From a phage: a DNA stretch of 64,000 nt. Shown here in pieces: positions 5,593-64,000 of the stretch. The DNA is taken from sequence record PZ445428.1. The stretch is one strand, 5' to 3'. Positions within the stretch are counted from its first letter, which is position 1, and each line of letters opens with the position of its first letter. The notes under the pieces were generated by a model. That model was not told where the DNA came from. It ran no database searches and saw only the letters and a list, made by a program, of their open reading frames with translations. The translations under genes were made by a program, and so were the position numbers.

Positions 5593-5613
5593 TACAGGCT
5601 TTTCAGCCGATAA

Positions 5614-5637
5614 GGAGAGCTTCGGCTCTCCTTTTTT
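5614..5637 (+). terminator. Rho-independent terminator after major capsid gene
   Basis: GGAGAGC-TTCG-GCTCTCC hairpin followed by TTTTTT. Confidence 0.7.
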
Positions 5638-31111: not shown

Positions 31112-31885
31112 TTAGTCGTCCAGATCGCTAGCAGCTTCTGCATCGATACCTTTCTGGGAACCAGCTTCGGAACCACCCTTAGCATCGCCACCTTCCTGCT
31201 TCTCACGTCCTTCCATGAAGGCATCTACTGCTTCTTTCTGTTCTTCGTAAGACGGAACCGGATAGGTTTCTTCCAGAGAAGGAACTTTCTCGAACTTCAG
31301 GAAATCGCCATTTTCATCGCTCAGTGCTTCACCGAGGATATCTACATCAGCAGCGTGTAACTTAGACTCAGCACTGTTAGGATCTTTCAGTTTCATCTGG
31401 AACTGCATTGCTGCAATCTGTTGTACATCGTACTCAGTTTCGAAGCCTTTACCTTTCTTCTCGATAGAGATATCGATATCGAACGGATCGGATAGTTCAA
31501 GCTGTTTCATGATAGACTTGATGCCTTTCAGGATAGTAGCTTTAACTTCCATTACTTTCAGTTTGTTATCAGAACGGTCGATAACGAAAGCGATGTAGTT
31601 CTTCTTAGGTTTCAGCGGAACACGATTACCCTCTTTGTCCAGATCTTTCTCGAAGAAGCCCATTTCATGGATCGGGTCAGCTTTACCACGAACAAAGCTC
31701 TCTTTAGTACGGTTGAAACGCAGGCACTCAAACGGAGCTGCATTACCATCTTTGTTAGTCAGCCAGTAGACATAACGCGGAAGAACACCAGAAACGATAC
31801 GAACACGAGTGATACCGTTGTTGAATTTCAGGAAGTCGATTTTATCGTTAGAACCGCCAGTAGTTTCGCCCCAAGACTTAGCCAT
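31112..31885 (-). CDS. Hypothetical protein with acidic C-terminal tail
   Basis: 257 aa, GAGGAA RBS, C-terminus ...GGDAKGGSEAGSQKGIDAEAASDLDD; an ssDNA-binding role is speculation. Confidence 0.3.
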   Translation of the reverse strand: MAKSWGETTGGSNDKIDFLKFNNGITRVRIVSGVLPRYVYWLTNKDGNAAPFECLRFNRTKESFVRGKADPIHEMGFFEKDLDKEGNRVPLKPKKNYIAFVIDRSDNKLKVMEVKATILKGIKSIMKQLELSDPFDIDISIEKKGKGFETEYDVQQIAAMQFQMKLKDPNSAESKLHAADVDILGEALSDENGDFLKFEKVPSLEETYPVPSYEEQKEAVDAFMEGREKQEGGDAKGGSEAGSQKGIDAEAASDLDD

Positions 31886-39293: not shown

Positions 39294-40061
39294 TTATTCA
39301 GCAGCCGCAGCTTTTGCATCCAGTTTAGCACGCTTAGCAGCACCATCATAGTCCTTAGCAACCAGACCACGACGAGACAGCATAGATTTAACACCGCGCT
39401 CAGACTTACCAGTTTTCTCAGCGATATCAGCAACAGTCATGTTAGCCAGATCCAGACCTTCTAACAGATCTTCGCGAGTTTTAGCGCTTGAAGTTTCCTG
39501 TACCGGCATTGCAGCGATACGACCTTCACGAAGCAGGCTCAGAGCTTTACCACGGATCTGCTTGATATTGCGACCGAAGTGAGCAGCGATAGCTTCAATA
39601 GTTGCACCAGCAACAACCTGATTAACGAAATCAGTTTCTTCGTCAGGAGTGAAGGAACGAACGGCAGCAGCTTTTTCAGTTGGCTTAACAGCAGCAGTCA
39701 TTTCCAGACTCAGAATCTTACCCTGTACCTGCTTAGCACCGAACTGACCACCAGCTACAGCAGCAGCGATTTCAGCGTAGGTATACTGACCAGCATGAGA
39801 GTTCAGGAAATCAACCAGTTCAGCTTCCTGCTCAGGAGTCCACGGGGATTTCTGTACTTCGTTAGCTTTCTGTACTTCGAAGCCTTCTTTACGCAGCTTA
39901 GAACCAACAGAGCGGGCGGTTACGTCCTTGCCAGTTTCAGCAGCCAGTTCTACAGCGATAGCAGCAACTTGTTCTTGAGAGATTACAGCTACACCCAGAG
40001 CAACGGCTTTAGCTTTCAGAGACTCGGTTACACCTTCTACGTTCCAGTTCAGTTTAGACAT
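39294..40061 (-). CDS. DNA-binding protein with four internal HTH-like repeats
   Basis: 255 aa; four repeats of about 50 aa each ending in an HTH-like segment (e.g. TVADIAEKTGKSERGVKSMLSRRGL); strongly biased codon usage. Confidence 0.5.
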   Translation of the reverse strand: MSKLNWNVEGVTESLKAKAVALGVAVISQEQVAAIAVELAAETGKDVTARSVGSKLRKEGFEVQKANEVQKSPWTPEQEAELVDFLNSHAGQYTYAEIAAAVAGGQFGAKQVQGKILSLEMTAAVKPTEKAAAVRSFTPDEETDFVNQVVAGATIEAIAAHFGRNIKQIRGKALSLLREGRIAAMPVQETSSAKTREDLLEGLDLANMTVADIAEKTGKSERGVKSMLSRRGLVAKDYDGAAKRAKLDAKAAAAE

Positions 40062-42983: not shown

Positions 42984-43394
42984 TTATTTAGTGATAGCTC
43001 GGACAGCTTCTGCCAGATGAGCAGCTGCTTTACCAGTCAGCTTGTCGATAATCGCTGAATCCAGGAAGTCTGGAGCCAGACCTGCATCAGAGAATGCAGA
43101 CAGAAGATCGGCATGAGCCTGAGCTTTAGAAGTACGAGAACCGCCAGAAGCTTTTTCTCCAGTAGATGCAGTTGATTTGGAAGCAGAGCCAGCAGCTTTC
43201 TTGATATACAGACCCGCTTTAGTCAACTTCATACGGAAGCCGTTCGGAGTTACACCGTTTTCCTGAGCGATTTCGCTAACAATTTCCATGCTAACGCCCG
43301 GACGCTCATCTTCTGGGAATTGCTCCATACGAGCAACGTAATCGGAAGACATTTTTTCGAACAGTTCATCAGTCCACTGAGTTGGAGTAGTCAT
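42984..43394 (-). CDS. Hypothetical protein
   Basis: 136-aa ORF with biased codon usage, own promoter. Confidence 0.4.
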   Translation of the reverse strand: MTTPTQWTDELFEKMSSDYVARMEQFPEDERPGVSMEIVSEIAQENGVTPNGFRMKLTKAGLYIKKAAGSASKSTASTGEKASGGSRTSKAQAHADLLSAFSDAGLAPDFLDSAIIDKLTGKAAAHLAEAVRAITK

Positions 43395-57160: not shown

Positions 57161-57679
57161 GTGAAACCTCAATTAACAAAAGAATTTCTAGAGAAATACC
57201 TAGAACTCAGAGAAGATACACTCTATTGGAAGCCAAGAGAAACTAACAAGGGTGGATTTAACACTAGATTTGCTGGAAAACCTGTAGGAGCCGTCAATGG
57301 AAATGGCTACCTATGCTTCCGACTTAATGTGGAAGGTTATAGATGGGAGTTAAGAAATCATGTAGTAATCTTCTGTCTCTATTATGGATATTACCCTACT
57401 AAGACAGTAGATCATAAAGATACAAATAAACTTAATAACCACCCTTTAAGTCTAAGGGAATCAACCGATGCTGGTAACGCCCAAAATAGAGGAGCTGGTA
57501 AAAACAATACTCATGGGCATAAAAACCTAGAGCCTCTTAGTTCAGGAAACTGGAGGGTTAGGATAACACACAACGGTACTGTTTATAGATCTTCCGCAAT
57601 GCCTTTAGAAAAAGCTCTAGAACATAGAGATATTAAACTTAAAGAATTTCATGGTGAATACGCTAATAATGGAGAATAA
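57161..57679 (+). CDS. HNH homing endonuclease (HNH_3-like), free-standing between nrdA and nrdB
   Basis: GKPVGAVNGNGY...YRWELRNHV...VDHKDTNKLNNHPLSLRE motif set; GTG start after AAGGAGA; own promoter and terminator. Confidence 0.7.
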   Translation: MKPQLTKEFLEKYLELREDTLYWKPRETNKGGFNTRFAGKPVGAVNGNGYLCFRLNVEGYRWELRNHVVIFCLYYGYYPTKTVDHKDTNKLNNHPLSLRESTDAGNAQNRGAGKNNTHGHKNLEPLSSGNWRVRITHNGTVYRSSAMPLEKALEHRDIKLKEFHGEYANNGE

Positions 57680-57682
57680 TTA

Positions 57683-58828
57683 ATGACAACCTTACTAAAT
57701 CTGAACTGGAATCCTGATTCTGAAGAGCTATTTCTGGGTGATGCTTTGGGAGTAGCAGACTATGTTCGTGTTGCTCATCCAGAGCTAGAACGACTTGCAC
57801 TATTGCAGAGGAGCCAGTTTTGGACTGAAACAGAAATCAGTCTAGAAAGTGACAAAAAGCAATGGCCTAATCTCCCAAGAGAAATACAAGAAATCACTCT
57901 GCTGAATTTAGCTTGGCAGGTTCAAACAGATTCATTTATTAGTAGAGCACCAGAAGCCGCAGTACTTCCTTTGGTTAGTCGCCCTGAGTTAGAGGGAATG
58001 CTAAAGCAGTGGAGCTACTTCGAAGATCTGCACAGCCGTGCTTATAGCAACATTATCCGTAACGTTCTGACTGATCCAGCAGAATTTATCGATTCTGTTA
58101 CAAAAAACCAAGAAGCATTCGCACGTATCGCTGATTCCGTAGAACTGTTCGATGAACTGTATCAATTAGGTCAGTATTTCATCGCAGTACGTGACCATCG
58201 TGGTGACAATACTTATCCAGAAACCGAGTTTCCTGAAGTTAAACGTGAAACTCAGGCTAAACTGTTAGATGCCTATTTTGCAATCTATGGTCTGGAAGCA
58301 ATGCAGTTCTACGCATCTTTTGCTTGTACCTTTGCTCTAGCAGAAAACGATATTCTGCAAGGTATTGCTAAGAACCTGCAATTGATTGCTAAAGATGAAG
58401 CTCTGCATACTCAAATGTCCAAAGCAGTTATCCAGATCATGTTCCAGCAGTTCGACCAAGATCTGATTGATGAAGCTCTGGCTAAAGCACCAGCGCAGCT
58501 TTTGAAAACTCTGCAAACTGAAATCAACTGGGGCCACTTTATCTTTAAAGGCCGTAGTCTGATTGGTCTGAACGCAGAACTTCTGGAAGAATACCTTTAC
58601 TTTGTAGGACGTAACGCATTTATGCATATTGGCGTAGAATGGCCGAGCAATCTGCCAGTAATTACTAAGAACCCAATTCCGTGGATCATGAACTGGCTGG
58701 ATACTACCTCTTTACAACCTGCTCCACAGGAAATCCAGATTGGTGCAGCTTATCGTGTAGGTCAGGTAACTGAGACTTCAACTGATACCTTGAAAGACCT
58801 GGGTAATGAATTTGAGGGCATGTTCTAA
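57683..58828 (+). CDS. nrdB: Ribonucleotide reductase small subunit (class I beta)
   Basis: 381 aa; di-iron ligand-like ExxH segments (EDLHSRAYS, DEALHTQ); adjacent to nrdA. Confidence 0.85.
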   Translation: MTTLLNLNWNPDSEELFLGDALGVADYVRVAHPELERLALLQRSQFWTETEISLESDKKQWPNLPREIQEITLLNLAWQVQTDSFISRAPEAAVLPLVSRPELEGMLKQWSYFEDLHSRAYSNIIRNVLTDPAEFIDSVTKNQEAFARIADSVELFDELYQLGQYFIAVRDHRGDNTYPETEFPEVKRETQAKLLDAYFAIYGLEAMQFYASFACTFALAENDILQGIAKNLQLIAKDEALHTQMSKAVIQIMFQQFDQDLIDEALAKAPAQLLKTLQTEINWGHFIFKGRSLIGLNAELLEEYLYFVGRNAFMHIGVEWPSNLPVITKNPIPWIMNWLDTTSLQPAPQEIQIGAAYRVGQVTETSTDTLKDLGNEFEGMF

Positions 58829-60218: not shown

Positions 60219-60572
60219 ATGTTAATTATACTATTATTTGTAATATTCTTTCTAAAACATTTTATGGCCGATTATCCTCTCCAAACACCATATATGCTAA
60301 GAAAGACTCATAAAATAGGGTGGAAACTTCCATTATTAACCCATTCTCTAGTACATGCTGTATTAACATTTGCAATTCTAATTCTATTCACATCACTAGG
60401 GATGGCTATAGCTTTAGCTATTATGGAATTAATTTTACACTTTATTATAGATTATTGGAAAGCACAACGCTGTAAGTACGCTATAAGCGATGCTAAGTTT
60501 TGGATAGCTTTAGGATTTGATCAGTTACTGCACTATCTGACATACGCCTTAATAATCTTGATTATAATCTAA
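60219..60572 (+). CDS. Small integral membrane protein (hypothetical)
   Basis: 117 aa with about three hydrophobic helices (LIILLFVIFFL, AVLTFAILILFTSLGMAIALAIM, ALIILIII). Confidence 0.4.
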   Translation: MLIILLFVIFFLKHFMADYPLQTPYMLRKTHKIGWKLPLLTHSLVHAVLTFAILILFTSLGMAIALAIMELILHFIIDYWKAQRCKYAISDAKFWIALGFDQLLHYLTYALIILIII

Positions 60573-60577
60573 CTCAA

Positions 60578-60603
60578 ATAGCCCTTCGGGGCTATTATAT
60601 TTA
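60578..60603 (+). terminator. Terminator-like hairpin after membrane protein gene
   Basis: ATAGCCC-TTCG-GGGCTAT hairpin followed by T-rich TATATTT. Confidence 0.5.
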
Positions 60604-61188: not shown

Positions 61189-61664
61189 TGTCGGTTTTCC
61201 ACATATATACAGATGGTGCATGTAAAGGTAATCCTGGGTTAGGCGCTTGGGGTTTTGTAGTATATGATCCTACTGATGAACGTTTAGGTTCTAAATCCGG
61301 TTTTAATCCAAAAACCACAAATAATGAGATGGAACTCACAGCTATTGTTGAAGTTCTACGTTGGGCTACTAAAAATGATAAGCGCCCAGCTATGATCTAC
61401 ACTGACTCTACATACTGTAAAAATGGCATGGAAAGCTGGGTTTTCTCCTGGCAGAAAAAAGGCTGGAAGAAAGCCGATGGAGAAGCCCCTCTTAACCTAG
61501 AGTTGTGGAAAGAAGCATTCTCATTACTACAAAAATACATAAACTTCCACGACACCACACCGACCTTCGTTAAAGTCAAGGGGCACTCAGGTGGTCCTAG
61601 AAATGACGAAGTAGACGCTCTATGTAATACAGTTATAACAGAGCAAGAGTTAGCTGAGATGTAA
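61188..61664 (+). CDS. Ribonuclease H
   Basis: HIYTDGACKGNPG, TNNEMELTAIVE, IYTDSTYC, VKGHSGGPRNDEVDALCN (RNase HI DEDD catalytic pattern). Confidence 0.8.
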   Translation: MSVFHIYTDGACKGNPGLGAWGFVVYDPTDERLGSKSGFNPKTTNNEMELTAIVEVLRWATKNDKRPAMIYTDSTYCKNGMESWVFSWQKKGWKKADGEAPLNLELWKEAFSLLQKYINFHDTTPTFVKVKGHSGGPRNDEVDALCNTVITEQELAEM

Positions 61665-61684
61665 TAAATAAATTAAAAATTCAG

Positions 61685-61713
61685 TTGCTTAAAGCCCTCG
61701 ATTTTAGTATAAT
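61685..61713 (+). promoter_or_regulatory. Sigma70-type promoter
   Basis: TTGCTT-17 nt-TATAAT; 9-bp inverted repeat AAAGCCCTC/GAGGGCTTT brackets the -10 and the RBS. Confidence 0.5.
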
Positions 61714-61740
61714 ATTCATATTGAAAGTGAGGAGGGCTTT

Positions 61741-62019
61741 ATGCGAATTTATAACTCAAATTCATTAGGTTTCAAACCATTGAGAAAACGTGCACAATCT
61801 CCGCGTCAGATCAGAAAGGCTAATATCGGAGAACCAGAAACGCGTCTTCCGCCACCTCCTGAACAACGTTTAGTTTATCTAGACGAGGAATTGGCAGAAC
61901 GTGAACGTAAAGCTCAAGAAGAAATTGAGCGTAAGAAGATGTGTACTGCTCCGGCATATAATAAAGGTGCATATCAATACGTTTCTGATGAAGAACAAGC
62001 TAAGATGGTCGGCAGATAA
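61741..62019 (+). CDS. Hypothetical protein
   Basis: 92-aa ORF with GAGGAGG RBS and own promoter. Confidence 0.3.
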   Translation: MRIYNSNSLGFKPLRKRAQSPRQIRKANIGEPETRLPPPPEQRLVYLDEELAERERKAQEEIERKKMCTAPAYNKGAYQYVSDEEQAKMVGR

Positions 62020-62035
62020 TTTTTAAAAAATTCAT

Positions 62036-62064
62036 TTGCTAAACGCTTCAAAATCTCGTATAAT
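62036..62064 (+). promoter_or_regulatory. Sigma70-type promoter for basic protein gene
   Basis: TTGCTA-17 nt-TATAAT. Confidence 0.55.
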
Positions 62065-62102
62065 ATACTTCATAAATTGATCAACAAAAAGGAAAATAAA
62101 TA

Positions 62103-62618
62103 ATGGCTAAGCAGAAAAACGCAAAAACTCAGGCAGCTCCAGCAGTTAAGACTTTCCCGCAGACCGAAGCTAATCGTAAGGCTCGTCTGGAACGTCATCT
62201 GCGTAAGCATCCTGAAGATGTTCAGGCTGCACAAGCTCTGGGTCGTCCGGCTCCTGTTCGTCAGAAACCGAAGGCTAAAAACTCAACCCGAGCTGTAGCT
62301 AAACAGGTTGTGTTCATCAAAGGTGAAGGCCACAAGTCTGTACCTGTAACCCTGGGCTTCAACGGTGGAGCTGAAATGTTCTCCCGTAAGGACATGTCCC
62401 CGAAAGAGTACGAAAAAGCAGTTAATCAGAAACGTAAGCCAATGGCCGACGTATTCCGTGAAACTCGCGGCCAGTTCGGCTCTGTTAAACCGAATATCTT
62501 CGGTGTAGAGTATAGCCGTGACAACGTTCGCGCTCTGTGCTACGGCATTGGCATCAAGTTCACTGGTGCTTCTGATCGTAAATCCGCTAAACCGGCTCGT
62601 AAGCGTAAAGCGAAGTAA
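62103..62618 (+). CDS. Highly basic protein, codon-optimised (putative abundant nucleic-acid-binding protein)
   Basis: 171 aa, Lys/Arg-rich termini (…KPARKRKAK), codon usage like capsid gene; strong promoter upstream, hairpin downstream. Confidence 0.4.
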   Translation: MAKQKNAKTQAAPAVKTFPQTEANRKARLERHLRKHPEDVQAAQALGRPAPVRQKPKAKNSTRAVAKQVVFIKGEGHKSVPVTLGFNGGAEMFSRKDMSPKEYEKAVNQKRKPMADVFRETRGQFGSVKPNIFGVEYSRDNVRALCYGIGIKFTGASDRKSAKPARKRKAK

Positions 62619-62626
62619 TGATTGAT

Positions 62627-62640
62627 GGGGCGAAAGCCCC
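62627..62640 (+). terminator. GC hairpin with GAAA tetraloop (terminator or RNA processing site)
   Basis: GGGGC-GAAA-GCCCC; no clean U-run. Confidence 0.35.
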
Positions 62641-62676
62641 ATATACTAACTCTCTTTCTAACTAAGGATATTTTTT

Positions 62677-62892
62677 ATGTTCTCTAAGAAACCACGTTCC
62701 GTTACTGAAATCGTTGCTTCCTTTACCACAATTACTGACGAACTTCAAGCTCGTATTGATGCTGATCAGAAAACCGCTGCTGAAATTCAGAAACAGCAGG
62801 AAGAACTTGCTCTGAAATTGGCTGAAACCAATAAGAGCGAAAAATCTGCTCAAACTATTAAGGAAAACATCCTTAAACTGCTGGGTAAGTAA
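62677..62892 (+). CDS. Hypothetical small helical protein
   Basis: 71-aa ORF with AAGGATA RBS, biased codons. Confidence 0.3.
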   Translation: MFSKKPRSVTEIVASFTTITDELQARIDADQKTAAEIQKQQEELALKLAETNKSEKSAQTIKENILKLLGK

Positions 62893-62893
62893 T

Positions 62894-63154
62894 ATGAGAC
62901 ATAATAACTCACGTATTATGTCTGGTATGCTTCAACGACTATTTAACGATGGAGCGGTGAGGGCTTATCGGACAGACATTACCAATATTTGGAAACTAGA
63001 GTTTAGGTTATCAGATGATTCCGAAGCCATAAACAACCGTACCTTTACTTGGTATGAATTTGAAGATGAAGTTCAGCAGTTTAGCGAGGGTTACTTTGTA
63101 ACACCTGGAGAAGCTCAGGCTGCCCTAGAGCACTACTGTAGGACTTATCTCTGA
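62894..63154 (+). CDS. Hypothetical protein
   Basis: 86-aa ORF. Confidence 0.3.
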   Translation: MRHNNSRIMSGMLQRLFNDGAVRAYRTDITNIWKLEFRLSDDSEAINNRTFTWYEFEDEVQQFSEGYFVTPGEAQAALEHYCRTYL

Positions 63155-63161
63155 TATACTA

Positions 63162-63177
63162 GGGGGCGAAAGCCCCT
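63162..63177 (+). terminator. Second copy of GAAA-tetraloop hairpin
   Basis: GGGGGC-GAAA-GCCCC(T); same element as at 62627. Confidence 0.35.
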
Positions 63178-63193
63178 CTCATTTGGAGAAACT

Positions 63194-63409
63194 ATGCGTA
63201 ACTTCGTTGCAAAGAATGATTTTAACCGTGCTAGCACTCATAAGTCTGCTAGAGATTATACTCGTCTTTCTAAACATGAGCTTCTAGAAGAAATCATGGA
63301 AGAAAACTGGGATGTTAATGAAAATGGAACAGACCTGTTTGAAGAAGAAGAAATTCCCTTGAAAGACCCCAAGCAGTGGGAGTCTAACAAAGAGACCACT
63401 CTTTGTTAG
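63194..63409 (+). CDS. Hypothetical acidic protein
   Basis: 71-aa ORF after GGAGAA RBS. Confidence 0.3.
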   Translation: MRNFVAKNDFNRASTHKSARDYTRLSKHELLEEIMEENWDVNENGTDLFEEEEIPLKDPKQWESNKETTLC

Positions 63410-63433
63410 TTTTCTACACAATAAGGATAAGTT

Positions 63434-64000
63434 ATGAAAGTAAAACCATTTGGTATGCTGGACATTGAATCCCTAGGGACTCCAGATAACTGTGGAACAA
63501 CCCATATCGCAATGCCGTCTTTCGCTTTCGTAGCCATGCACGGAATTGATACAGACCCTGACCTGATCTTCGTAACCCTAGACGTTCAAGATCAACTTAA
63601 TGCAGGTGCTAAAGTTACTGCATCTACATTTGCTTTCTGGATGGATCAGGCTAAAAATAGCCCATCTGCCCTCCACATTATGGAAGCTTTACAAAGCAAA
63701 GGTGCAAAACTCATTGCATTCCGTGATGGTAAACACCAGTGCACTAATGAACTAGGTTCAAACTATGGAGCTTACCTCATGGCTAAGAACATGATGGAAA
63801 TCTTCCTAGACGAAAATGCACTGTACTACGGCAATGGCCCAGAATTTGATATGACTATCTACTCTGCTAATACGTTCCATGCTGGAACTAATGAAGCAGT
63901 CGTTCCATGGAAATTCTGGAATCTGGGTAACGTTCGTTCTTTCCGTAATCTGTGGATGCAAGCAGGTTATAATTACAAAGAACTGGAAGCCGAAGGTGCT
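63434..64000 (+). CDS. DnaQ-like 3'-5' exonuclease candidate, 3' end cut by the window
   Basis: Open frame from ATG 63434 (AAGGATAA RBS) to window end with no stop; FGMLDIESLG resembles the exonuclease D-x-E motif; not in the ORF track because it is unterminated. Confidence 0.3.
   Translation, partial: MKVKPFGMLDIESLGTPDNCGTTHIAMPSFAFVAMHGIDTDPDLIFVTLDVQDQLNAGAKVTASTFAFWMDQAKNSPSALHIMEALQSKGAKLIAFRDGKHQCTNELGSNYGAYLMAKNMMEIFLDENALYYGNGPEFDMTIYSANTFHAGTNEAVVPWKFWNLGNVRSFRNLWMQAGYNYKELEAEGA

What the first reader, a model, noticed from the sequence alone, without database searches (positions are those of the whole stretch)
62103..62640. Highly basic, codon-optimised early protein flanked by a strong promoter and a repeated GAAA-tetraloop hairpin
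The 171-aa protein is Lys/Arg-rich at both ends and uses highly-expressed-gene codons. It has a near-consensus promoter (62036-62064), and the hairpin GGGGC-GAAA-GCCCC follows it at 62627 and recurs at 63162. The hairpin lacks a U-run, so it looks like an RNA processing or stability element rather than a simple terminator. The protein could be a histone-like or nucleoid-remodelling factor.
Basis: partly seen in the sequence, partly recalled or inferred. Interest (0 to 1): 0.4.

Follow-up and report, generated by a model that had tools for sequence, protein, structure and literature searches.

The report
Strongly expressed basic T5-family early protein
This is a conserved early gene of T5-like phages, driven by the classic strong promoter P-H207 and closed by a conserved RNA hairpin; it makes an abundant, very basic protein of unknown function whose only detectable resemblance is to the RNA-binding loop of ribosomal protein S15.

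Summary
The window is Escherichia phage TrudiGerster (Bas27, a T5-like Epseptimavirus). ORF 62103-62618 is the orthologue of T5.089 (Pfam DUF7022). It has pI 10.8, net charge +26, and the 4th highest codon-adaptation score of 65 ORFs. Its promoter is the orthologue of the T5 promoter P-H207.

Published RNA-seq of the related phage Bas33 gives the orthologue about 7,700 TPM. That is 10-fold above the upstream gene and about 70-fold above the gene just after the hairpin.

The hairpin is a conserved structure. Distant relatives keep a GC stem with compensatory changes and different loops (GAAA, UUCG, CUUG) at the same place. It is therefore a 3'-end-forming element, either a terminator or a stabiliser.

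The second copy is not a dispersed repeat. The two copies bracket a two-gene cassette that T5 lacks, and T5 keeps a single hairpin.

Nothing supports a histone-like protein. The only recurring, sub-threshold similarity is between the conserved N-terminal module and the helix-loop-helix of ribosomal protein uS15 that carries the H-x3-H-x2-D signature. That favours RNA binding, but it is unproven.

Overall this is an ordinary high-expression cassette around a protein of unknown function, with one new lead.

The parts
62020..62035 (+). A/T-rich block (TTTTTAAAAAATTCAT) upstream of the -35 hexamer; inferred to act like an UP element
   Evidence: Read directly from the sequence. It is identical in T5 P-H207. 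A similar A-rich block is present in Kpn13-P1, KKP_3711, L213 and L215.
62036..62064 (+). Sigma-70 promoter TTGCTA-17-TATAAT, orthologue of T5 promoter P-H207. The start site is inferred at about 62071-62072.
   Evidence: Promoter scan. T5 reference annotation 'promoter P-H 207' directly upstream of T5.089. In the alignment the only difference within the promoter core is one spacer base. RNA steps up 10-fold at the orthologous place in Bas33.
62072..62102 (+). Short A-rich, unstructured leader with a Shine-Dalgarno sequence (AAGGA, 62090-62094)
   Evidence: Read directly from the sequence. The 'AAAAGGAAAAyAAATAATG' stretch is conserved across relatives.
62103..62618 (+). Gene for the 171-aa basic protein (bas27_0069; T5.089 orthologue; Pfam DUF7022). 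It has an N-terminal conserved module (~aa 18-60), a variable middle (~aa 65-115) and a C-terminal conserved module (~aa 120-158).
   Evidence: The AF2 model of the N-module has pLDDT 90-95 for aa 20-50.
62625..62642 (+). Hairpin HP1: AUGGGGC-GAAA-GCCCCAU, 7 bp, with no U-run
   Evidence: centroid -13.8 kcal/mol. Structure is conserved with compensatory changes in relatives.
62677..62892 (+). Cassette gene 1: a 71-aa coiled-coil-like protein (phrog_2380) with CAI 0.55. It is absent from T5.
   Evidence: T5 lacks it.
62894..63154 (+). Cassette gene 2: an 86-aa protein (phrog_28965) with CAI 0.20. It is absent from T5.
63162..63177 (+). Hairpin HP2: GGGGGC-GAAA-GCCCCU, followed by CUCAUUUGGAG. 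It corresponds to the single hairpin of T5.
63194..63409 (+). Next conserved gene (71 aa; DUF7230; T5.088 orthologue)
   Evidence: Synteny is seen.

Best explanation
This is a conserved high-output early expression cassette of T5-like phages.

Shown:
- A strong sigma-70 promoter, the orthologue of the experimentally known T5 promoter P-H207, sits upstream of the gene.
- The gene has a short A-rich leader with a Shine-Dalgarno sequence and uses highly-expressed-gene codons.
- The product is a very basic, largely non-globular protein (DUF7022, T5.089 family).
- In the related phage Bas33 the mRNA is among the most abundant phage transcripts.
- Directly after the stop codon lies a short GC-clamped tetraloop hairpin. 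Its structure, not its sequence, is conserved over wide phage distances. In Bas33 it marks a ~70-fold fall in RNA level.

Inferred:
- The hairpin forms the 3' end of the abundant transcript. It does this by termination where a U-rich tail is present (T5, Bas33, HP2). Where the tail is absent (HP1 in this window) it acts as a barrier to 3'-exonucleases after read-through and cleavage.
- This uncouples the very high output of this gene from its neighbours.
- The second copy is the same kind of hairpin placed after a two-gene cassette. T5 and some relatives lack the cassette and keep one hairpin, most simply by deletion between the two copies.
- The protein binds nucleic acid through its basic tails and a conserved helix-loop-helix (R-x2-R-L-x2-H-L-x2-H-P-x-D). 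This is the only part with any detectable relative, and it matches the segment of ribosomal protein uS15 that carries the H-x3-H-x2-D loop. I therefore favour structured RNA over DNA as the ligand.

My confidence differs by part: about 0.85 for the expression architecture, about 0.6 that the protein binds nucleic acid at all, and about 0.4 that the ligand is RNA bound in an S15-like way.
For: Identity and promoter:
- The region is 100% identical to TrudiGerster, and the gene is bas27_0069.
- It matches DUF7022 at 262 bits.
- The T5 orthologue T5.089 sits directly behind the annotated promoter P-H 207. The two promoters are nearly identical.
- Ph207 is used as a strong T5 core promoter in PMC6146998.

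Expression (Bas33 RNA-seq, PMC13250531 Dataset S1):
- bas33_0071, 80% identical to the window protein, has 7677/6658 TPM.
- The upstream gene 0070 has 734/810 TPM. Gene 0072, just after the hairpin, has 102/92 TPM. The major capsid gene has 5136/3009 TPM.
- CAI is rank 4 of 65.

Hairpin:
- There are 2 copies against 0.01 expected.
- Equivalent hairpins with GAAA, UUCG, CUUG, AAAA or GUCAU loops lie at the same site in 10 phages. They are absent only where the next gene overlaps the stop codon.
- 92% of cells are paired, 4 of 7 pairs show changes on both sides, and 0 of 500 shuffles reach the covariation score.

Indel:
- T5, Bas33, Bas34 and JLBYU43 have one hairpin and no cassette.
- The cassette gene is present in 374 phage records of both genera.
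- There is no other copy of the hairpin in the genome.

Protein:
- pI is 10.8.
- The full-length AF2 model has pTM 0.25, but the N-module is confident.
- The N-module alone is conserved in more than 100 small basic proteins.

S15 similarity:
- 25 of 114 N-module relatives hit Pfam Ribosomal_S15 below threshold. This is by far the commonest non-self family.
- 4 of 6 PDB profile hits are uS15.
- About 15 of 21 Foldseek hits are uS15.
- hhalign against 62 real S15 sequences gives P = 0.02, aligning H32/H36/D39 with S15 H42/H46/D49. Only 5 of 200 column-shuffled controls reach this score.
- 29% of family members score at least 5 bits against an S15 HMM, compared with 0.6% of shuffled sequences.

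Neighbourhood: RNase H upstream and an Rv2179c-like 3'-5' exoribonuclease domain downstream, conserved in distant relatives.
Against: - No S15 match is significant on its own. The E-values are 0.6-9, the hhalign probability is 2%, and the window protein itself scores only 3 bits.
- The family members are related to each other, so the many weak hits amount to one event.
- RNA-seq levels cannot separate termination from processing plus differential decay.
- The gene after bas33_0072 is high again (3569 TPM). This needs either an unannotated promoter or processing.
- The RNA-seq is from a Tequintavirus that lacks the cassette, not from this phage.
- Several GenBank and UniRef records call the protein 'virion structural protein'.
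- No binding data exist for any member.
Confidence: 0.6

Rival explanations
1. The protein is a histone-like or DNA-coating factor that compacts or protects replicating phage DNA.
For: - The protein has extreme basic charge and disordered Lys/Arg-rich tails.
- The gene lies among DNA-metabolism genes: nrdAB, frd, thy and RNase H.
- Labels such as 'virion structural protein' could reflect co-purification with DNA. The D5 DNA-binding protein does this in phiR2-01 particles (PMC8624392).
Against: - There is no similarity to any known nucleoid-protein family in Pfam, NCBIfam or the PDB.
- The only recurring similarity is to an RNA-binding segment of uS15.
- The phage already encodes a more highly expressed HTH protein. 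This is window ORF 39294-40061, whose Bas33 orthologue has 22,868 TPM.
Confidence: 0.25
2. The S15 resemblance is a chance or convergent short motif. The protein has an unrelated role, for example binding a host protein, with the basic tails incidental.
For: - All matches are below threshold and cover 32 residues or fewer.
- A C2H2 zinc-finger linker and a Leishmania microtubule protein give comparable matches to the same H-x3-H motif.
Against: - uS15 is the single recurring family by four methods.
- The match is always in the same register, onto the invariant residues of both families.
- Shuffled and reversed controls lose the signal.
Confidence: 0.3
3. The hairpins are purely RNA stability or processing elements. 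Transcription reads through them, and they only block 3'-exonucleases after endonucleolytic cleavage.
For: - HP1 has no U-run. Several relatives (L213, L214, My1) have none either.
- The T5 annotation shows no promoter between T5.089 and T5.087.
- The gene two places downstream is well expressed in Bas33 (3569 TPM). This needs read-through unless there is an unannotated promoter.
Against: - T5, Bas33, KKP_3711 and L215 carry U-rich tails (CAUAUUUU, UAUCUUUU, UCCUUUUG) of the intrinsic-terminator type.
- The ~70-fold drop directly after the hairpin fits efficient termination.
Confidence: 0.3
4. The protein is a virion component, for example an internal DNA-associated protein.
For: - It is called 'virion structural protein' in OSYSP, phiLLS, LmqsSP1, ESCO30, JLBYU40/43 and in UniRef.
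- In daunorubicin-treated Bas33 infections, one unnamed 'hypothetical protein' was detected alongside particle proteins.
Against: - The gene has an early-type promoter and sits in the early DNA-metabolism block.
- The source of the label could not be traced.
- AKFV33 proteomics found only four structural proteins.
- phiR2-01 'particle-associated' proteomics lists 88 proteins, including the non-structural D5.
Confidence: 0.07

Closest known systems
T5.089 / Pfam DUF7022 (PF22887), phrog_4516
   Same: It is an orthologue: 81% identity to T5.089, a full-length HMM match, and the same position between RNase H and the T5.088/T5.087 homologues.
   Different: Nothing of substance differs. The family has no assigned function, and no paper in the searched library mentions T5.089 or DUF7022.
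Bacteriophage T5 promoter P-H207 (Gentz and Bujard 1985 and Deuschle et al. 1986, both cited from memory)
   Same: The position is the same and the sequence nearly identical, including the A-rich upstream block and the transcribed ATAAATTGAT block.
   Different: One spacer base differs. Activity was measured for T5, not for this phage.
Ribosomal protein uS15 (Pfam PF00312), helix 2-loop-helix 3
   Same: The R/L/H-x3-H-x2-D signature is shared in the same register, as a helix-loop-helix in a basic protein. uS15 binds the 16S rRNA h20-h22 junction and a U-G/C-G motif (PMC10931766). Phage-encoded uS15 genes are known (PMC6375957).
   Different: This is not a four-helix S15. Helices 1 and 4 and the HHSRRGLL continuation are missing, the C-terminal module is unrelated, and all matches are below threshold.
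Intrinsic terminators and 3'-protective tetraloop hairpins of phage and bacterial mRNAs (for example the CUUCGG hairpins of T4 intercistronic regions and the rpsO t1 hairpin, both from memory)
   Same: It is a short GC stem with an extra-stable GNRA/UNCG/CUUG loop on the sense strand, directly after the stop codon of a highly expressed gene. RNA falls after it.
   Different: The U-tract is weak or absent in this window. Termination versus stabilisation has not been measured.
PeSL (promoter-early stem-loop) cassettes that flank shuffled ORFs in T4-type phages (Arbiol et al. 2010, from memory)
   Same: Identical stem-loops bracket a small-gene cassette that is present or absent among relatives.
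   Different: Only the stem-loop is repeated, with no promoter in the repeat. There are only two copies in the genome.

Membership tests
DUF7022 (PF22887) | Full-length match above the Pfam gathering score | tested here: met
   262.2 bits against a cut-off of 27, covering residues 1-169 of the protein and positions 1-166 of the 166-position model.
DUF7022 (PF22887) | Conserved synteny in Demerecviridae (RNase H ... DUF7022 ... DUF7230 ... Rv2179c-like exonuclease) | tested here: met
T5 promoter P-H207 | Orthologous sequence and position upstream of the T5.089 gene | tested here: met
   The alignment shows 97% column identity. The -35 and -10 hexamers are identical.
T5 promoter P-H207 | High in vivo promoter activity | not testable with these tools
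   Only indirect evidence is available: a 10-fold RNA step-up at the orthologous site in Bas33.
Ribosomal protein uS15 (PF00312) | Match to the family model at the curated threshold | tested here: not met
   The window protein has no S15 hit at E<=1. 25 of 114 relatives have sub-threshold hits, the best at E = 6.7e-4.
Ribosomal protein uS15 (PF00312) | Four-helix S15 fold over ~85 residues | tested here: not met
Ribosomal protein uS15 (PF00312) | Conserved H-x3-H-x2-D loop between helices 2 and 3 | tested here: met
   H32, H36 and D39 are invariant in the family and align with the invariant S15 residues H42, H46 and D49.
Ribosomal protein uS15 (PF00312) | Binding to 16S rRNA h20-h22 or to a U-G/C-G motif | not testable with these tools
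   This needs a binding assay or a structure.
Intrinsic (rho-independent) terminator | GC-rich stem-loop | tested here: met
Intrinsic (rho-independent) terminator | U-rich tract directly after the stem | tested here: not met
   HP1 is followed by AUAUACUAAC and HP2 by CUCAUUUGG. Neither was called by the terminator scan. The orthologous T5/Bas33 hairpin does have CAUAUUUU.
Intrinsic (rho-independent) terminator | Transcripts end at the site | tested here: inconclusive
   There is a ~70-fold TPM drop across the orthologous hairpin in Bas33. However, this is not 3'-end mapping and it is not this phage.
Bacterial or phage histone-like proteins (HU/IHF, H-NS, Fis, TF1) | Sequence or fold match to any of these families | tested here: not met
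   There were no such hits in Pfam, NCBIfam, PDB sequence search or Foldseek.
PeSL-type mobile regulatory cassettes | Repeat unit containing an early promoter plus a stem-loop, in many copies | tested here: not met
   The repeat is the 14-nt hairpin only, with two copies in the genome.

The most novel reading that the evidence does not exclude
The DUF7022 N-terminal module is a stripped-down mimic or derivative of the uS15 RNA-recognition hairpin. Under this reading the abundant early protein docks on host RNA, such as the 16S rRNA platform at h20-h22, the rpsO leader, or another helix bearing a U-G/C-G motif. It would thereby retune translation or RNA stability for the phage. This would be a new class of phage-encoded ribosomal-protein mimic, widespread in T5-like phages.
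Probability: 0.12. Interest if true: 0.75.

Novelty: new member of a known kind. Interest (0 to 1): 0.35.

Why it matters
P-H207 is one of the classic very strong E. coli-recognised promoters, yet the gene it naturally drives has no known function. This analysis adds four things:
- It shows that the gene product is one of the most heavily expressed early products of T5-like phages.
- It defines a conserved promoter-gene-hairpin module that could be reused as an insulated expression unit.
- It explains the duplicated hairpin as the scar of a cassette indel.
- It gives the first testable functional lead, an S15-like RNA-binding motif, for a protein family found in hundreds of therapeutic-candidate phages.

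Tried and rejected
- The scan of viral contigs for the 14-mer was uninformative. It returned at least 120 unrelated contigs, about what chance gives for a 14-mer in that much sequence.
- Rfam gave nothing relevant in 61500-64000.
- PDB sequence search with the full-family profile gave no hit.
- The full-length AF2 model had low confidence (pTM 0.25), so its Foldseek list is not trustworthy as a fold assignment.
- NCBIfam and PADLOC gave nothing.
- Literature searches for 'T5.089' and 'DUF7022' returned zero papers. Two broader searches were too loose to help.
- The C-terminal module did not align with S15 helix 4, although it looked similar by eye. I therefore rejected the idea that the whole protein is an S15 with insertions.
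- Two large proteins among the profile hits (P0044, P0073) are repeat or zinc-finger false positives and were excluded.
- The origin of the 'virion structural protein' label could not be traced.
- The Bas33 proteome table is not in the stored part of the supplement.

Full report
**Source and observation**

The 1.8 kb around the finding is 100% identical to Escherichia phage TrudiGerster (Bas27, Demerecviridae, Epseptimavirus). Window coordinates equal record coordinates minus 480.

ORF 62103-62618 is bas27_0069, annotated as hypothetical. It encodes 171 aa with pI 10.8, 40 Lys+Arg against 14 Asp+Glu, and the basic residues concentrated at both ends.

The window mean is 0.32, which puts it 4th of 65 ORFs, next to the major capsid gene.

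TTGCTA-17-TATAAT lies at 62036-62064. GGGGCGAAAGCCCC occurs at 62627 and 63163, which is 2 copies against 0.01 expected. All elements of the observation are therefore real.

**Promoter**

In the T5 reference genome the orthologous gene T5.089 (81% identical) sits directly behind a feature annotated 'promoter P-H 207'. The window sequence differs from it by one spacer base across the promoter core.

P-H207 is one of the strong T5 promoters characterised by Bujard's laboratory (my own knowledge). It is still used as a strong core promoter (PMC6146998).

Relatives as distant as 30-50% protein identity keep the following features in front of the gene:
- the same TTGC(T/A)N-17-TATAAT arrangement;
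- an A-rich upstream block;
- a conserved initial transcribed region;
- the AAGGAAA ribosome-binding site.

**Expression data**

A 2026 PNAS paper (PMC13250531) reports RNA-seq of the Tequintavirus Bas33 (HildyBeyeler, MZ501074) at 20 min after infection. Its gene bas33_0071 has exactly the coordinates of the orthologue, which is 80% identical to the window protein.

| Gene | Position relative to the orthologue | TPM (two replicates) |
|---|---|---|
| bas33_0070 | upstream | 734 / 810 |
| bas33_0071 | the orthologue | 7677 / 6658 |
| bas33_0072 | first gene after the hairpin | 102 / 92 |
| bas33_0073 | next gene downstream | 3569 / 3043 |
| bas33_0007 | major capsid gene | 5136 / 3009 |

Among the Bas33 genes listed in the two parts of the table that I read, only five have more RNA. 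The orthologues of the other high-CAI window ORFs are among them. This also validates the CAI calculation.

**Hairpin**

The hairpin sequence is invariant in T5, JLBYU43, Bas33, RN29 and UTK0009. More distant relatives have different hairpins at the same place, between the stop codon and the next ribosome-binding site:

| Phage or locus | Hairpin |
|---|---|
| Enterobacter phage KKP_3711 | GGGAGGC-UUCG-GCCUCCU |
| L213 | AUGGGGC-UUCG-GCCCCAU |
| L215 | GGGGC-UUCG-GCCCC |
| L210 | UGGGAGC-CUUG-GCUCCCA |
| L214 | AAGGGGGC-AAAA-GCCCCCUU |
| My1 | AUGGGGGC-GUCAU-GCCCCCAU |

The hairpin is missing only where the next gene overlaps the stop codon (Kpn13-P1, L212, L217).

On an 11-sequence alignment, 92% of cells pair and 4 of 7 pairs change on both sides. 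No shuffle out of 500 reaches the covariation score. The alignment was hand-anchored on the stems, so it leans towards the structure.

Most of the loops belong to the three extra-stable RNA tetraloop classes, read on the sense strand. This points to selection on the transcript rather than on the DNA.

The tail after the stem varies. It is U-rich in T5/Bas33 (CAUAUUUU), KKP_3711 and L215. It is not U-rich after HP1 of this window, L214 or My1.

The hairpin is thus a conserved 3'-boundary element. Whether it terminates transcription, protects a processed end, or does both cannot be decided from steady-state RNA levels.

**Why the hairpin recurs**

T5, Bas33, Bas34 and JLBYU43 have one hairpin, followed at once by the T5.088 homologue. 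In the window the two copies bracket two extra small genes, 62677-62892 and 62894-63154.

The first of these genes is present in 374 phage records, including Tequintaviruses such as EC104 and SCF. The cassette is therefore widespread. The T5 state is most simply a deletion between the two hairpin copies.

The hairpin occurs nowhere else in the 114-kb genome. It is not a dispersed signal.

**Protein**

An alignment of 24 homologues shows three regions:
- an invariant N-terminal module (T21 E22 A23 N24 R25 ... R28 ... H32 ... H36 ... D39 ... Q41);
- a variable middle, which is deleted in Klebsiella phages;
- a conserved C-terminal module (FGxVKPNIFGxEYSxxNVRALCYGxGIKFTG).

A profile search of 1.8 billion representative proteins found 128 hits. 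Most are small basic proteins of 60-170 aa that share only the N-module. One of them sits in the same T5-like synteny.

The full-length AF2 model is poor (pTM 0.25). The N-module alone is confident, with pLDDT 90-95 for residues 20-50: helix 19-35, an HPxD loop, then helix 40-45.

**The S15 lead**

Five approaches converge on one family and one register.

1. Foldseek with the full-length model lists several uS15 chains with 26-residue, 0.6 Å matches. With the N-module model, about 15 of 21 hits are uS15 from bacteria, archaea and eukaryotes.
2. A profile of the N-module proteins searched against PDB sequences gives six hits at E<=10. Four of them are uS15, for example archaeal 'RALRIRKHLEEHPKD'.
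3. Pfam Ribosomal_S15 is hit below threshold by 25 of 114 N-module proteins. The next family is hit by 5.
4. hhalign against 62 real bacterial S15 sequences fetched for this purpose gives P = 0.02. It aligns H32/H36/D39 with the invariant S15 residues H42/H46/D49. Only 5 of 200 column-shuffled controls do as well.
5. 29% of family members score at least 5 bits against an S15 HMM. This compares with 0.6% of shuffled sequences and none of the reversed sequences.

Against this:
- Every individual match is below threshold.
- Only 17-32 residues align.
- The C-terminal module does not align.
- The window protein itself scores only 3 bits.

I treat this as a motif-level resemblance to the helix 2-loop-helix 3 segment of uS15, not as family membership. 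uS15 binds the 16S rRNA h20-h22 junction and a U-G/C-G motif (PMC10931766). Bona fide uS15 genes do occur in phages (PMC6375957).

**Context**

The gene always lies between RNase H and a small DUF7230 gene, which is followed by an exonuclease with an Rv2179c-like 3'-5' exoribonuclease domain.

The phage also has a more highly expressed HTH protein. This is window ORF 39294-40061, whose Bas33 orthologue has 22,868 TPM. A further general DNA-coating protein is therefore less needed.

No nucleoid-protein family matches the protein.

Labels such as 'virion structural protein' and 'swarming motility protein' appear in some records. I could not trace them to data. One proteomic study of a T5-like phage proteins 'particle-associated', including the non-structural D5.

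**Verdict**

The expression architecture is ordinary and largely known: a classic strong early promoter, a codon-optimised gene, and a conserved 3' hairpin. The duplicated hairpin is an indel scar. The histone-like idea has no support.

Two things are new. One is the documentation that this function-unknown protein is among the most expressed early products. The other is the recurring but unproven S15-like RNA-binding motif.

Noticed in passing
window 63384-63409 (+): A terminator-like hairpin, CTAACAAAGAG-ACCA-CTCTTTGTTAG followed by TTTTCT, overlaps the stop codon of ORF 63194-63409, just before the Rv2179c-like exonuclease gene. In Bas33 the gene before this site has ~100 TPM and the gene after it ~3500 TPM. 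The start of the downstream transcript is therefore unexplained.
   Followed up: partly
window 63148-63189 (+): In the minimum-energy fold, UCUCUGA (the end of ORF 62894-63154, including its stop codon) pairs with UUGGAGA (the Shine-Dalgarno sequence of ORF 63194), enclosing HP2. This could couple translation of the two genes.
   Followed up: no
window 5612-5633 and 60577-60596 (+): These are the only other perfect GNRA/UNCG tetraloop hairpins in the 64-kb window. Both have UUCG loops, both are on the sense strand, and both lie directly after stop codons. The first follows the major capsid gene and has a U-run.
   Followed up: partly
window 39294-40061 (-), 31112-31885 (-), 42984-43394 (-): These three further ORFs have CAI 0.61-0.71. 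Their Bas33 counterparts, matched by gene length and position, are bas33_0040, 0032 and 0046, which are among the most abundant transcripts. The 255-aa ORF has HTH/sigma-70 region 4 matches. The other two have no Pfam match.
   Followed up: partly
window 62677-62892 (+): This 71-aa coiled-coil-like ORF is labelled 'tail length tape-measure protein' or 'baseplate wedge subunit' in many GenBank records. It is an early-region gene of 71 aa, so the label looks like a propagated mis-annotation.
   Followed up: partly
window 62641-62648 and 63155-63162: The octamer ATATACTA directly follows HP1 and directly precedes HP2. It is partly conserved in RN29 and UTK0009. It may be chance or may relate to the cassette junctions.
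   Followed up: no
L001 1462-1980 (record 57641-58159; window about 57161-57679): A putative homing endonuclease gene lies between the ribonucleotide reductase alpha and beta subunit genes. The AKFV33 paper describes the same insertion hotspot in that T5-like phage and in T-even phages.
   Followed up: no
window 60219-60572 (+): This is a very hydrophobic 117-aa ORF with the lowest CAI in the neighbourhood (0.12). It is followed by a UUCG hairpin.
   Followed up: no
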